From positions 1 to 64,000 of the forward strand of contig NW_019218185.1 in NCBI RefSeq assembly GCF_002571385.2: a DNA stretch of 64,000 nt, in the 5' to 3' direction. The position numbers were made by a program. The stretch is from Stylophora pistillata (Eukaryota). Below, in pieces: positions 39,201 through 45,200 of the stretch. Every line of letters starts with the position of its first letter. The first letter of the stretch is position 1.

Positions 39201-42200
39201 CCTCTGAGAAAAATTACACACAAAAAGTGAATTCACAATTACTGACTGTTTCCTAGCCTGTTCCACAAGCCTGTTCCAATTGTTTGAAATGTTTCTGCAA
39301 GTTCTCTCAAAAAAACTACCTGTACAGCCGTACACCAGTGCTTAACAATCACTACATTTTTGTCTTAACTATTGCAGTGGTGTTGGCTTCGTAAATCACA
39401 GCAATCCTCACTCACTTTCTTTCTTCCAATCTTACACTGATTTTAAGACAAAAGTAATACAGTACACTGGAAAAAAAAAGAAAAGAAAAATGGAGCCGTC
39501 TTATTTGAGATCATTACACAAACCTACATGCATCAACAGACATGCATGTCCAAGAAACCCTGTTATTCAGGTTAACAGCAAGATCTACAGGACCTGCTAA
39601 AAAGTTACTTATCTGTTTACCTGTTGATTATGTAAATTACTGCTTAGGCGATCTTGTTGACAACTGTGGTGTGGAGCGAATTTAACTGTGTTGTCCACCT
39701 ATCCAGTCCTTGGAACCTATCCACACTCTGTGTGGTTCTGTTCAATTCAAGAAGTTGATTTACCTGGTCAATGCGGCCATGAATGGTATTGTCCAGTATG
39801 CACTGCACCAGAAGGCTTTCCACTTCTTCTGTATCAATGTTCAACTCTTTGGATATAAATGGGATGTGGATCCTTGTGTATGGCTTGATCAGCTTGATAA
39901 GCACTTGAGTCCTGATGTTTCTTAAGAGATCTTCAATATGCTCCCTTATAAAGGGGTCATCCATAATGTTCTTACGGTTGGTTTTGAGAATTTTCTCAAA
40001 CTCATTGATATCATCGTTCTGATAAGCACTGACAAGATTTGTCATGGCTAGAATCTCTGGGTCATTTTTGTAAGGTTTTGCTTCCTGTGAGTCCAAAGGA
40101 TTGATCCCAGATTTCATGAGCATGTTAGCCAAGACAAGATATTTCAGGCAAGTTGTGCGTCTTCCACTTCCAGACTCATCATAGTTCTTAAAAGCCTCAA
40201 AGAAATCAGTGTGAGCTGCTCCATAGTCTCCCTCGCGTAAGTGCATCTTACCACCACACTCTCTGATCACCCCCATAATAAGAGGATGTGGAATGGCTGA
40301 CTTGATGTGAAGGGACTGTTCATACAAAGCTTTAAGCTTTTTGTTATTTTTCTGAGCTGTGTACATCTGGATCTCTAGGGCATAAATCTCTAGCAACTGA
40401 GTTCCCTTCTTTAGATCATCTTCCCCTTCATCTGTCTGACATGACTGATGCAGTTGTTTCAAGATTTTTGCCAGCTTGGTGAATTCTCCTCTGTCAAAGT
40501 ACAACTTTCCCAGCTTTGTGTTTGTCTTGAACCACAGTCTATCATTCTTTGCATCTTTCAAGGCTTCCAGTGTGGTCTCATAAAAATTCTGTAGCAACTC
40601 CATTTGCTTCGAAGTGGAAATGTAATCAAGAATAGAGTTGATAGACTTTTCAGAGTGGTTTCTTGTGACAGCACTCTTTATATATGTGAGCAACTGCTGA
40701 TAGCGTGTCATCATCTCATCATAGTGACCCAGTTTGAAGTTGATCTTGATCATTTGTTTCAGTGCTTTGAATCCCCATTCACCTTTTTCTGTTTCAAGAT
40801 CCAAAACCTTCTGAAAGCTCTGCAGTGAGGCATTAGGATCATCTTCTTTCAAGGCTTTAGAATTCTAGTACTGGTTTTCCAAATCCACATCGGGCTCTGA
40901 GGCACTGTCTTCAGAGTACTCCAAGTCATAATCTTCATCGTCATCACACATGAAATCATCATCCATGTCCGACATTTTAAAGGGGCACTGGAGCAAAACC
41001 ATAAATCATAGTTAGTGGACATCTTCTTATCATTGCTCTTGATTGGTATGAATGCAACCTTTATGTTCATAGACTTATCCAGAGCTTGTTTTAGGTCTTT
41101 GGGGGCTAAAAATGTCTAGCAAATGCTTTACTAGCATAATTTATTCATTCTTTGAAAAAGCTTAATTAGGTCATTGGAGATCCCATGTTTATGATCCAAT
41201 ATCCTTAGGAGCAGGCCTTTCTCCTGGAAAAAGACCTGTTTTTCATTTTCCTTGATCCAGACTCTTGGGGTTACACACTCCAATGCTCTACCATGGACAT
41301 AACACAGAGACTCTGTGGTGAGCAAGGTCCAATCCGAAGTTTATGACGCTATCAACCTTACAGATTCCAGCAGTATGCAGATCATGCATCAACTACAAAC
41401 TTGGTAATAGGCCTTGATCACTATAGTCTCTGTGGTTCAAAGGTAGAGCATCATTCCATGGAATGCAAAGATCTGAGGTTTGATTCCTCATGAGGACCCA
41501 GAATTTTTTCTTTTATTTCTTCTTTGAAAAGATGAAAAAACATCTTTCTCTATTTCTTTACCAAGCTCAAAACTAACCATCTTTCTTATTCTTGTTGTCA
41601 AGAATATTTGAAAATGAAAATGACCCAAACATGTACCATATCATTATCACTTTTGTTGAAAACATGTTGCTGAGTACAAAATTGTTGAGTTGAACAGTAA
41701 CCTTGCTATTAGTAAATTACTAGTGCCACAGTTCATACTTACAAAGGAGGGAATCTGATAATCTCTGTTGTCTTCAAGAAATACTTCAAACTAGAGGAAT
41801 AGTATTAATTGCAAGGGTTACATAACTGCTATGAATTGTGCATGGAGATATCAACACCCTTCAGTAATTCTCAAGTCAGAAAATGCACCTCAACAAAATT
41901 ATTCTGTCCCGAAAGATGGTTAAGTTAATGCAATTCATCATGCTTGAGAACTGTCACAGAATTTAAACAGCAAGTGAACGAGGGTAATTAAGAAAAGGCT
42001 TTTAAATAATTCTGGTATAAAACCAGATGTTTACAGACATGCATTTGTTAAGCCGCTCTCTTCAATTTGTGTGCAGCTTAAGGATGTATTGCATAATAGG
42101 TTACACAAAAAACACAATACGTATGAATTTGAATGGTCGGAGAATACTTTGAAACTAGTTCTGAACCAACTTGGCACGCCCGCATAGCACGATGGTTTGT

Positions 42201-45200
42201 GCCTTGATCCTGTTCGCCATTTTCACCGGAAAATTGTAAAAAATATTTGCCGCTGTAATTACCTTACACTTACCTCAGTTCGTTTAATACAAAGAAGAAA
42301 CCATAATACCTGTATAAGAGAGTAAATACGACGTGAACGAGAAGCTTTCATGAAAGAAAGCTTTGTCGATTAGAAGATTGCAAAAAATTTCAAGTCAGAG
42401 AACTGCATCTCAACATCAAATTCTGTCCCGAAAGATGGTAAAGATAGATGCATTTCATCATGTTAAAACATAGAATTGTCTTTTAAAATGTAACAAAAAG
42501 GGAGATGACTTACAATTTAAAGCGCCACTGGTATATCGGAGAATAAAATCGAAAGGTCACAGTTTCTAGTCGTGAAGACAAAATCGCTTTTACCCCAATG
42601 ACTTGTCCATGTGGAAAATGCGGAGGAGACTGGTATGGGAGAGCGGTATCGAGGCTACTTGCAAAAGAGGCTGAGAACAATGCGCGGGAAAATCAATGAA
42701 ATAAAAAACTGAAAAGGCAAATTTTTAAAACAAAGAACGTCAGGACATGGCTACGGTAACATCTTTGCCGGACGCTGTAATTATTCATATTCTCTCTTAT
42801 CTCGACTATCCTCGTCTGGTACGATGCTCAAGGGTTTGTTCGCGATGGCACAGGCTTTGCTACGACCCCAGCTTGTGGAAAATTGTCCGTATTCGGCCGA
42901 AACATGCTTCGGAAGTGGCAGCTGATACGGTCGCAAGGGTTGTCGCTCGAAGGACTAATCTTATTTCAAGCATTAATCTAACGAACTGCACAGGTGTAAA
43001 AGATGAGTCTTTGAAGCATATTTCCGAAAACTGTCCAAACCTGAGAAAATTCTATCTAAATGGATGTAATTTCATCACAGATTATGGCATTTTTGCTTTG
43101 GCGCGCAATTGTGATGCTCTGGAAACGGTTTCGATACCTTTGAAGAATGTTTCTGAAAAGGCTCTCTCTGCTTTGGTTAAAAATAACTCAAGTCTACGGA
43201 AGCTGTACGCTTACTCCATCGCTGTTACAGAAAATACAATAAAGGTAATCTCGTCAGTATGTCCTGAACTTGAAAAAATGATTATTTACGAAGCTTCCTT
43301 GGAAGACGATCAGAAAAGTTATGCTGATGTTTTGACCGATGAAATGGTGCGGCTTTTGGCGAATGGATGCCGAAAATTGAGAAAGTTGACCCTCAGATAC
43401 AACCAAGTTCTGGTCAGCGACAGAAGTTTGGCGGCTTTAGCGAAAAAATGCCGCAAACTGGAGTCTTTCGTGATCGATTATTGTGACAGAGACGGAGGAA
43501 TAACTGACTTTGGAGTTTGTACAATAGCTCACTTATGCCGAAATTTAAAATGCTTGAACATTTCCAATGGCGTCATCACCGATGTGTCGTTGATCGTGAT
43601 TGCTGATCAACTTCCGTTTCTCGAAGATTTGTCGCTGGAATTTAGCGAAATTACTGACGTTGGAGTGTATGCACTAATGAACAGATGCGAAAAACTGGCA
43701 AGGCTCATTGTCCATAATTCGGATAGTATTGAAACAGGTATTACCGACAACACTGCTTGCGTGATCGCAAATTATGCCAGCGATGAGTTTCGATCTCTTG
43801 GCCTTGGGTTCGCTGATATAACGGACGAAGGACTAAAAACAATTTGCTTCAACGTGGAGCTTTCGTTTTTGTCCATAAACGGTTGTAGTAAACTCACTTA
43901 CGAAGGTCTGAAATCATGCTTTTGTTATCTAGACTGCTTGTGGAATTTAGATATTTCTTTCACGGATATTGTGGGCAAAGACGAACAGCTGTTGGAAATA
44001 GGTAATTCTCTACCGTGTTTGGAAACACTTGATATTACGGATTGTTTCAGCGTTTCACAAGAAAGCGTAAAAGCTTTTAAAGAAAAATTTCCTCATTGTA
44101 AAGTTAACATGTAGGAATCGAAACCCACCGGAAAAAAAGTTGAAACTTCTTGTTTCAACCTGTTCAATGACTCATCACAAAACTGTTCCTTTGTTATAGT
44201 CGAAATACATTATCTGTGCTCTTGGTAATAGCCTTTGACCGCTTGCAAAATGGTAAAAACTTTTAAAAAAATTATTTACGCTTGCTTTGGACAGATTTAT
44301 TTAGTTTATAGAATGTTTCCTTTGACTCGGCAATTTCATATTTAATAGAAATCAAAATACAAAGGTTTGATCATTGCCCAATGATTTGGAGCAATGTTTT
44401 ATTTATGAAACGATAGCTTGCTTGTACAATCAGAGAAAGCAGCATTTTGGGCTCAAAAATATTAAAATTTTCGCTTTAACGCGTGAAAGATGCTTTGGTT
44501 TCGAACCATGCAAAGTCATGTCAAACGAACATAGTGCGTTTCTGTTTCCATATATGGAGATGTTAAGCTAAGTAAGACATCTTTAATCTCAAAGTTAATA
44601 TATTGTCATTCAAATACCTTAATAAATTTGAAAAAAAAAGATATCAATAAAACTTGTCTTTTACTTTGAGTTTGAAAAATTTAGAGATTGTCTCAGAAAT
44701 ATGTTTTTCAGCTGAGTCTTCTATAATTTTTGGTTTGGTCACCTGCTTCCACTCTTGACAACCACAATCAAATATGTAAATAAATGTGTGTTATTATGCA
44801 GATTTTTTTTACAGGTACAAATTGGTTTTTTTTTTTCTCCTCAAACAGTTAAACTATGATGTATGTTTGGATAGCTGCAGCAATGATGCGCATGTATTAG
44901 GGAATGTATTTTTTTTTGTGTTGTCAACAATAGATATTCTTTAGGTAAACTGAACTGGCCATTTACAAAAGGTGCTCTTAGAAAATGAGGTAGAATTCAA
45001 CAGTGTTGTCAAACATTGTTGTATTTGAAACCCTGAAGCTAAACTGTTGAACAAAACTTGTGAAATGTAAACTTGAAAAGCACAAAAGAATGTTTTGATT
45101 CAAGATTCCATGTGGAGCACTGTGGTAAACATAATTTAAGAGTAAATGTGGTTCCATATTTGCCCCTTTTATAACCTGTGTTTGCTTGCAAAGCTTATGT

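What the first reader, a model, noticed from the sequence alone, without database searches (positions are those of the whole stretch)
41868..42468. Two hidden SNORD2/snR39B-like snoRNAs upstream of COPS2
Seen: two ~80-nt paralogs keep C, D', C' and D boxes and a 14-nt guide while spacers diverge. Each ends 77-78 nt upstream of a predicted 3' splice site (41791 and 42310). Known: about 70-80 nt is the favoured position for intronic C/D snoRNAs. The D'+5 rule points to the G of LSU rRNA CCCGAAAG, the site guided by yeast snR39B (Gm805) and human SNORD2, which is hosted by EIF4A2. Here the host differs, although eIF4A3 is about 6 kb away on the other strand.
Basis: partly seen in the sequence, partly recalled or inferred. 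Interest (0 to 1): 0.7.

Follow-up and report, generated by a model that had tools for sequence, protein, structure and literature searches.

The report
Two intronic rRNA-methylation guide snoRNAs
Two small paralogous box C/D snoRNA genes sit in predicted introns just upstream of COPS2 in what looks like a sea-anemone-like (anthozoan) genome, and they carry the ancient guide for one conserved methylated G of large-subunit rRNA, which makes them an ordinary, correctly spotted annotation.

Summary
On the minus strand, 42468..42388 (copy A) and 41947..41871 (copy B) each carry a C box (ATGATGA), a D box (CTGA), a terminal stem and internal D'/C' boxes. They share an identical 22-nt block that includes a 13-nt perfect antisense to the universal 28S motif CCCGAAAGATGGT.

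Similarity stops at the snoRNA edges: the core is 65/81 identical, while the flanks are no more alike than shuffled sequence.

Rfam finds nothing here at gathering score. In E-value mode, the only two snoRNA matches in the 64 kb are these two, to RF00055 SNORD96, whose consensus carries the same guide. Scores are 36.8 and 30.2 bits against a cut-off of 43. RF00055 shares clan CL00072 with RF01299 (snR39B/SNORD2).

The D'+5 rule selects the G that snR39b methylates in yeast (Gm805) and SNORD2 in human (Gm1522/1509).

Each copy ends 77-78 nt before an AG acceptor, and three GTAAGT donors define short non-coding exons leading towards COPS2.

Expression, splicing and the species' own rRNA were not testable. 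The window is not human. Verdict: new members of a known, ancient family; low to moderate interest.

The parts
42388..42468 (-). snoRNA copy A (81 nt): box C/D snoRNA with C box 42461-42455, guide 42439-42426, D' CAGA 42425-42422, C'-like 42418-42410, D box 42398-42395, 5-bp terminal stem (one G-U)
   Evidence: RF00055, 30.2 bits, E 0.0017 in the 901-nt search; E 0.12 window-wide
41868..41950 (-). snoRNA copy B (about 77-83 nt): C box 41941-41935, guide 41920-41907, D' CAGA 41906-41903, C'-like 41895-41890, D box 41879-41876, 8-bp terminal stem TTCTCAAG/CTTGAGAA
   Evidence: RF00055, 36.8 bits, E 3.2e-05 in the 901-nt search; E 0.0023 window-wide; fold z = -3.25, 0 of 200 shuffles
42310..42513 (-). 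predicted intron 1 (204 nt; donor GTAAGT 42513-42508, acceptor AG 42311-42310) holding copy A
   Evidence: read; GTAAGT positions; inferred, no transcript data
42274..42309 (-). predicted non-coding exon 2 (36 nt; contains a 6-codon ATG...TAA mini-ORF)
   Evidence: read; inferred
41791..42273 (-). predicted intron 2 (483 nt; donor GTAAGT 42273-42268, acceptor AG 41792-41791) holding copy B
   Evidence: inferred
41743..41790 (-). predicted non-coding exon 3 (48 nt), followed by donor GTAAGT 41742-41737
   Evidence: inferred
40988..41742 (-). possible intron 3 (755 nt) ending at AG 40989-40988, 12 nt before the COPS2 ATG; contains a tRNA-like element (41426-41498, + strand)
   Evidence: acceptor chosen by eye, inferred
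39644..40975 (-). COPS2 (CSN2) coding sequence, uninterrupted by introns, with one in-frame TAG at 40867-40865; candidate downstream part of the host transcript
   Evidence: aligns 1-443 with human CSN2 chains, E 1.5e-255; PCI domain
42514..42746 (.). divergent intergenic/promoter region between predicted host exon 1 (minus) and the F-box/LRR gene (plus, ATG 42747); transcription start not located
   Evidence: inferred

Best explanation
These are two paralogous intron-encoded box C/D snoRNA genes.

**Proposed mechanism.** A minus-strand Pol II transcript starts in the region shared with the divergent F-box/LRR gene and is spliced. Each snoRNA is released from its intron: copy A from intron 1 and copy B from intron 2. 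The C/D and C'/D' motifs would bind the core proteins (SNU13, NOP56, NOP58, fibrillarin). The 13-nt antisense element upstream of D' would pair with the LSU rRNA motif CCCGAAAGAUGGU. Fibrillarin would then 2'-O-methylate the G paired to the fifth guide nucleotide upstream of D' (CCCGmAAAG). This is the site methylated through snR39b in yeast (Gm805) and SNORD2 in human (Gm1522/1509).

**Shown here:** the sequence architecture, the paralogy confined to the snoRNA body, the complementarity to a universal 28S motif, and the similarity to Rfam clan CL00072.

**Inferred:** expression, splicing, host identity (COPS2 5'-UTR exons or a separate non-coding host), snoRNP assembly, and the methylation itself.
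For: - **Boxes and stems** were read directly.
- **Guide.** A 22-nt identical block contains the guide. The exact 13-mer occurs twice, against 0 of 100 shuffles with any match. Its complement is the start of the universal 28S primer 1200F (PMC3063787 passage), and the 13-mer appears in 34 papers (listing).
- **Rfam, E-value mode.** Among the 12 matches at E<=1 in the whole window, the only snoRNA families are these two RF00055 hits, at E 0.0023 and 0.12. The model consensus has the same guide plus D'. Other guides for this rRNA segment also match weakly: SNORD51, ceN70 and TtnuCD19.
- **Background rate.** Only 3 of 24 C..D pairs in the window have a stem of 5 bp or more, and two of them are these loci.
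- **Selective conservation.** The core is 65/81 identical (0 of 500 shuffles) and the flanks are at shuffle level. This fits selection on both copies.
- **Position.** The copies end 77 and 78 nt upstream of AG acceptors. Three of the 17 minus-strand GTAAGT sites in 64 kb fall within 777 nt, exactly where donors are needed. The expectation is about 0.2 by my arithmetic, chosen post hoc.
- **Site assignments** come.
Against: - Neither copy reaches Rfam's gathering score: 36.8 and 30.2 bits against 43, with no hit in gathering mode.
- D' is CAGA rather than CUGA, and C' is degenerate (UGUUGA).
- Copy A folds no better than shuffles (z = -0.53; 53 of 200 shuffles fold as well). Its terminal stem is only 5 bp and includes a G-U.
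- There are no expression data. I chose the splice sites by eye.
- The organism's own 28S is not in the window, so complementarity was tested only against a universal primer sequence.
- Conservation in other species could not be tested.
Confidence: 0.8

Rival explanations
1. Only one copy, most likely B, is a working snoRNA. The other is a decaying duplicate that still looks intact.
For: Copy A scores lower against RF00055 (30.2 versus 36.8 bits). Window-wide its E-value is only 0.12. It has a weaker terminal stem, and its fold is not better than shuffles (53 of 200).
Against: Copy A keeps perfect C and D boxes, the whole 22-nt guide/D' block and the 78-nt distance to an acceptor, while its flanks have diverged to shuffle level. 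A neutral relic of that age should have lost these features. Copy A's C' region (TGATGT) is closer to the consensus than copy B's.
Confidence: 0.12
2. The RNAs exist, but their main role is not rRNA methylation. They might act in cis on host splicing, as human SNORD2 does in EIF4A2 by pairing with the downstream intron and hiding the branch point, or they might use the D guide on another target.
For: A cis role for SNORD2 is documented in human (PMC10324135, abstract and section 7). An 8-bp hairpin lies between copy A and its acceptor (about 42364-42342).
Against: Predicted pairing of each snoRNA with its downstream intron is not better than with shuffled downstream sequence. For duplex energy, 58 of 200 (A) and 81 of 200 (B) shuffles do as well. 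For folding gain, 134 and 135 of 200 do as well (mononucleotide shuffles). The segment upstream of the D box is only 10-11 nt and differs between the copies. The part that is strictly conserved is the rRNA guide.
Confidence: 0.05
3. Chance look-alikes or fragments of a repeat family, not genes.
For: There is no Rfam hit at gathering score, and C/D boxes are short motifs.
Against: - The exact 13-mer complementary to a known methylated rRNA site occurs twice, with 0 of 100 shuffles giving any match.
- In both copies it sits at the correct distance from a D'-like box, inside a C...D frame with a terminal stem.
- In both copies it lies 77-78 nt from an acceptor.
- Similarity ends at the snoRNA borders.
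- No further copies exist in the window.
Confidence: 0.03

Closest known systems
snR39B (yeast) / SNORD2 (human), Rfam RF01299, clan CL00072
   Same: Box C/D snoRNA whose D' guide selects the G of LSU CCCGAAAG: yeast Gm805 (PMC5699541) and human Gm1522/1509 (PMC5597630). Intron-encoded in animals.
   Different: The host is not an eIF4A1/2-type gene. SNORD2 sits in EIF4A2 in 84 of 109 vertebrates. Here there are two tandem paralogues in consecutive short introns upstream of COPS2. D' is CAGA. No evidence was found for the SNORD2-type pairing with the downstream intron. The score against RF01299 itself was not shown, because cmscan keeps only the best family of a clan.
SNORD96 / plant Z37-snoR39BY family, Rfam RF00055, clan CL00072
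   Same: This is the best Rfam match for both copies. The consensus shares the C box, the guide ACCAUCUUUCGGGA, the D' position, the C' UGUUGA and the D box. Arabidopsis snoR39BY (~RF00055) is listed for the homologous site Gm812.
   Different: Both copies score below the gathering cut-off (36.8 and 30.2 against 43). The family consensus has a longer element before the D box (..CUGcAAUU-CUGA). From recall, not from a call, that element matches 5.8S around human Gm75. Here the segment is 10-11 nt, keeps only UGCA, and sits in different registers in the two copies. A second guide is therefore not supported.
SNORD51 / SNORD32A (yeast snR39/snR59), clan CL00054
   Same: The guide overlaps the same rRNA segment (ACCAUCUUUCGG). 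Both copies give weak matches, at 24.7 and 23.9 bits.
   Different: In SNORD51 the D' box follows ...UUUCGG directly, so the +5 rule selects the A two nucleotides downstream (yeast Am807). Here two further guide nucleotides (GA) precede D', which selects the G.

Membership tests
Box C/D snoRNA (methylation guide class) | C box RUGAUGA near the 5' end and D box CUGA near the 3' end, brought together by a short terminal stem | tested here: met
   Both copies have ATGATGA and CTGA. The stems are 8 bp (B) and 5 bp including a G-U (A). Only 3 of 24 C..D pairs in the window have a stem of 5 bp or more.
Box C/D snoRNA (methylation guide class) | Internal D' and C' boxes | tested here: inconclusive
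   D' is CAGA and C' is UGUUGA (A also has UGAUGU), each one mismatch from consensus. They align with the D' and C' of the RF00055 consensus. Internal boxes are commonly degenerate (PMC11028025 passage).
Box C/D snoRNA (methylation guide class) | A 10-21-nt antisense element ending next to D or D', complementary to rRNA, with the fifth position on a known 2'-O-methylated nucleotide | tested here: met
   A 13-nt perfect complement to the start of universal 28S primer 1200F. The fifth guide nucleotide upstream of CAGA is the C that pairs with the G of CCCG. The rule and the length range are in PMC8162545. The species' own 28S was not available.
Box C/D snoRNA (methylation guide class) | Stable RNA of about 70-100 nt bound by fibrillarin/NOP56/NOP58/SNU13 | not testable with these tools
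   No expression or binding data were available.
Rfam RF00055 SNORD96 (clan CL00072 with RF01299 SNORD2/snR39B) | Covariance-model score at or above the curated gathering score (43 bits) | tested here: not met
   36.8 bits (B) and 30.2 bits (A), with no hit in gathering mode. E-values are 0.0023 and 0.12 for the whole window.
snR39B/SNORD2 functional group | Guide that selects the G of LSU CCCGAAAG (yeast Gm805, human Gm1522/1509) | tested here: met
   Actual methylation in this species was not tested.
snR39B/SNORD2 functional group | Location in an intron of EIF4A2 (vertebrate synteny) | tested here: not met
   The copies lie upstream of COPS2. The nearby helicase gene is eIF4A3, on the other strand (8 of 8 PDB matches of its exon 1 are eIF4A-III). 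This is a vertebrate feature, not a defining one.
Intron-encoded animal C/D snoRNA | Position a conserved distance upstream of the 3' splice site (about 50 nt before the branch point) | tested here: inconclusive
   The copies end 78 and 77 nt before AG acceptors preceded by pyrimidine tracts, with GTAAGT donors upstream. The rule is in PMC8162545. Splice sites and branch points are predictions only.

The most novel reading that the evidence does not exclude
The COPS2 locus may be doing double duty, or changing role. Its promoter and 5' introns would be kept mainly to deliver two copies of an essential rRNA-methylation guide, while the intronless COPS2 reading frame behind them carries a premature in-frame TAG at codon 37. 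That would be a protein gene caught turning into a snoRNA host gene, or a case of programmed read-through or alternative initiation in a highly conserved signalosome subunit.
Probability: 0.06. Interest if true: 0.5.

Novelty: new member of a known kind. Interest (0 to 1): 0.25.

Why it matters
Standard annotation with Rfam at gathering thresholds misses both genes, so they are probably unannotated in this genome. They add a non-bilaterian data point for an LSU methylation site and guide that a comparative study lists as shared by Arabidopsis, human and yeast (PMC3511168). They also show once more that the guide is conserved while the host gene is not. That bears on the vertebrate SNORD2-EIF4A2 coupling, which then looks like a lineage-specific acquisition. 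No open question becomes newly testable.

Tried and rejected
- **Rfam at gathering score.** It found only two tRNA hits and nothing at the locus.
- **SNORD2-type cis pairing with the downstream intron.** It is not above shuffles. These were mononucleotide shuffles, and the duplexfold output looked odd, so this is weak evidence.
- **A second (D-box) guide.** The two copies differ in sequence and register upstream of the D box. I could not test it against 5.8S, which is not in the window.
- **More copies or other snoRNAs in the window, including the eIF4A3 introns.** There were none at E<=1 and none with the guide. A third C..D pair with a 6-bp stem (9427..9310, minus strand; 118 nt, AT-rich) has no Rfam support and I take it for chance.
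- **COPS2 as a processed retrocopy.** No poly(A) remnant follows the stop codon, so this stays undecided.
- **Literature on COPS2 as a snoRNA host.** One search returned only an unrelated abstract book.
- **Literature on cnidarian snoRNAs.** One search listed no dedicated study among the 12 rows shown of 29 papers.
- **Malformed calls.** Searches returned format errors. Searches replaced three of them. The gapped pattern was dropped because one search already covered it.
- **Not attempted.** I did not search COPS2 against the large protein sets, because unnamed hits might be human.
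Full report
**Where the window comes from.** I take it for a non-human, anthozoan-like cnidarian genome.
- The F-box/LRR protein encoded at 42747-44111 (+) has its best named relatives in the sea anemones Actinia tenebrosa (55% identity) and Nematostella vectensis (52%). Closer relatives (96-67%) exist only in unnamed sources. In all, 46 proteins passed E<=0.001 among 7732 candidates.
- COPS2 has no introns in its coding sequence here and lies about 8 kb from eIF4A3. From recall, not from a call, that does not match the human gene arrangement.
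- The window holds two N runs (3877-4494 and 8428). I left them alone.

**The observation.** On the minus strand there are two units of about 80 nt.
- Copy A spans 42468..42388: stem TTTTA, C box ATGATGA (42461-42455), a spacer, guide ACCATCTTTCGGGA (42439-42426), D' CAGA (42425-42422), C'-like TGATGTTGA (42418-42410), D box CTGA (42398-42395) and stem TGAAA.
- Copy B spans 41950..41868: an 8-bp stem TTCTCAAG/CTTGAGAA, C box 41941-41935, guide 41920-41907, D' 41906-41903, C'-like TGTTGA 41895-41890 and D box 41879-41876.
- The copies share an unbroken identical block of 22 nt (guide, D' and AAT), while the spacers on either side differ.

**More than chance.**
- The exact 13-mer ACCATCTTTCGGG occurs only at these two places, and 0 of 100 dinucleotide shuffles gave any match. 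With 2 mismatches allowed in the 14-mer there are still only these two matches, but 6 of 100 shuffles then reach two.
- A simple scan of my own for RTGATGA...CTGA found 6 pairs on the plus strand and 18 on the minus strand. Three of these 24 have a terminal stem of 5 bp or more. Two are the candidates. The third (9427..9310) is AT-rich and has no other support.
- The cores are 65 of 81 identical (0 of 500 shuffles reach the score). The 45 nt upstream and the 78-80 nt downstream are indistinguishable from shuffles (47 and 235 of 500). The similarity is thus confined to the snoRNA body. I would expect that pattern from an old duplication, or a transposition of the snoRNA alone, followed by selection on both copies.

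**Family.**
- Rfam at gathering score finds only two tRNA hits in the window.
- In E-value mode over the whole window there are 12 matches at E<=1. The only snoRNA families among them are RF00055 SNORD96 at copy B (36.8 bits, E 0.0023) and copy A (30.2 bits, E 0.12), against a gathering score of 43.
- The RF00055 consensus reads CACcAUCUUUCGGGaCUGA at the aligned position, which is the same guide with D' in the same place.
- Weaker matches to SNORD51, ceN70 and TtnuCD19 share the same rRNA-complementary stretch.
- A table in PMC3511168 (passages seen) lists one LSU site shared by Arabidopsis (snoR39BY, ~RF00055, Gm812), human (RF01299, CL00072, Gm1509) and yeast (SnR39B, RF01299, CL00072). Its supplementary Table S2 on clan targets could not be seen.
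- cmscan keeps only the best family of a clan, so the score against RF01299 was hidden.

**Target.**
- The reverse complement of the 13-nt guide is the start of the universal 28S primer 1200F, CCCGAAAGATGGTGAACTATGC (PMC3063787 passage). The motif occurs in 34 papers (listing only).
- Against that primer, copy A can extend the duplex by a G-U and two A-U pairs, to 16 pairs. Copy B stops at 13 pairs. This is my reading.
- Counting from CAGA, the fifth guide nucleotide is the C that pairs with the G of CCCG. The +5 rule and the 10-21-nt guide length are stated in PMC8162545 (passages).
- That G is Gm805 in yeast 25S, assigned to snR39b, with Am807 assigned to snR39/snR59 two nucleotides on (PMC5699541 table passage). 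In human 28S it is Gm1522 (1509), assigned to SNORD2 (PMC5597630 Table 2 passage).
- The species' own 28S is not in the window, so the pairing was not tested against it.

**A second guide?** The RF00055 consensus has ..CUGcAAUU before the D box. From recall, this matches the 5.8S segment around human Gm75. The only call-based point is that Arabidopsis Gm79 equals human Gm75 (PMC8351944 passage). Here the segment before the D box is only 10-11 nt, keeps UGCA, and sits in different registers in the two copies. I see no support for a conserved second target, though 5.8S was not available for a test.

**Host.**
- Three GTAAGT donors lie on the minus strand at 42513, 42273 and 41742. They are 3 of the 17 minus-strand GTAAGT sites in the window (35 on both strands).
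- Together with AG acceptors at 42311-42310 and 41792-41791, they define a 204-nt intron around copy A, a 36-nt exon, a 483-nt intron around copy B and a 48-nt exon.
- The copies end 78 and 77 nt before their acceptors. That fits the conserved position of intronic C/D snoRNAs upstream of the 3' splice site, about 50 nt before the branch point (PMC8162545 passage). I saw that paper only as a reference entry.
- A pyrimidine-rich acceptor at 40989-40988 lies 12 nt before the COPS2 ATG at 40975. The short exons could therefore be COPS2 5'-UTR exons, or they could belong to a separate non-coding host gene.
- All of this is prediction by eye.

**Neighbours.**
- COPS2 (40975..39644, minus strand) reads through as 443 residues. 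It aligns end to end with human CSN2 chains (E 1.5e-255) and has a PCI domain.
- Codon 37 of COPS2 is TAG (40867-40865) where the human chain has Tyr.
- eIF4A3 starts at 48624 (+). Its first exon, searched alone, matches only eIF4A-III chains (8 of 8).
- An F-box/LRR gene (42747-44111, +) diverges from the host exons, and a rhodopsin-type receptor gene lies at 35976-36944.
- I see no link between the snoRNAs and eIF4A3. SNORD2's host is EIF4A2, in 84 of 109 vertebrates (PMC13736004 passage), and host changes over long evolutionary distances are already described (PMC2655684 passage).

**Cis regulation.** Human SNORD2 pairs with its downstream intron and hides the branch point (PMC10324135, abstract and section 7). 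Here the predicted pairing of each copy with its downstream intron is no better than with shuffled sequence: 58 and 81 of 200 shuffles for duplex energy, and 134 and 135 of 200 for folding gain.

**Weak points.**
- Both Rfam scores are below the curated threshold.
- D' and C' are non-consensus.
- Copy A's fold is unremarkable (z = -0.53; 53 of 200 shuffles), whereas copy B's is good (z = -3.25; 0 of 200).
- There is no expression, splicing, methylation or cross-species evidence. The collections that could hold related eukaryotic genomes were closed, and genome contigs holds only bacteria and archaea.

**Verdict.** These are two new members of the ancient snR39B/SNORD2/SNORD96 group in a cnidarian-like genome. 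The host context is unproven and differs from that in vertebrates. This is a sound annotation and not a surprise.

Noticed in passing
window 40867-40865 (minus strand), within COPS2 40975..39644: The otherwise intact, intronless COPS2 reading frame (443 codons, end-to-end match to human CSN2) has an in-frame TAG at codon 37, where the human chain has Tyr. It could be an assembly error, a variant, a young pseudogene or retrocopy, or read-through.
   Followed up: partly
window 3471-3543 (+) and 33343-33415 (-): The two tRNA calls (Ile-GAT and Thr-AGT) are nearly identical to each other, including about 10 nt of flank on each side and a T-run. This suggests copies of a tRNA-derived repeat or a recently duplicated gene family rather than two unrelated tRNA genes.
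   Followed up: partly
window 41426-41498 (+): A tRNA-like sequence just below Rfam's cut-off (26.6 bits against 29), followed by a T-run and not called by ARAGORN. It lies inside the possible third intron of the host, on the opposite strand.
   Followed up: partly
window about 42364-42342 (minus strand): An 8-bp perfect hairpin (AAGCTTTC / GAAAGCTT arms) lies between snoRNA copy A and its acceptor site. Copy B has no counterpart.
   Followed up: no
window 3750-3866 (both strands), 33545-33624 (+), 57819-57950 (-): Sub-threshold matches to plant microRNA precursor families (MIR5512 at 67 and 64.6 bits on both strands, MIR3627, MIR408). These are probably long inverted repeats or MITE-like hairpins rather than microRNAs. 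The first abuts the N run at 3877-4494.
   Followed up: no
window 9427..9310 (minus strand): A third RTGATGA...CTGA pair with a 6-bp terminal stem. It is 118 nt long and very AT-rich, with no Rfam match at E<=1. Probably chance.
   Followed up: partly
window 42309..42274 (minus strand): Predicted host exon 2 contains a 6-codon ATG...TAA mini-ORF. In addition, an in-frame ATG at 41004-41002 upstream of the COPS2 start would be removed if the acceptor at 40989-40988 is used.
   Followed up: no
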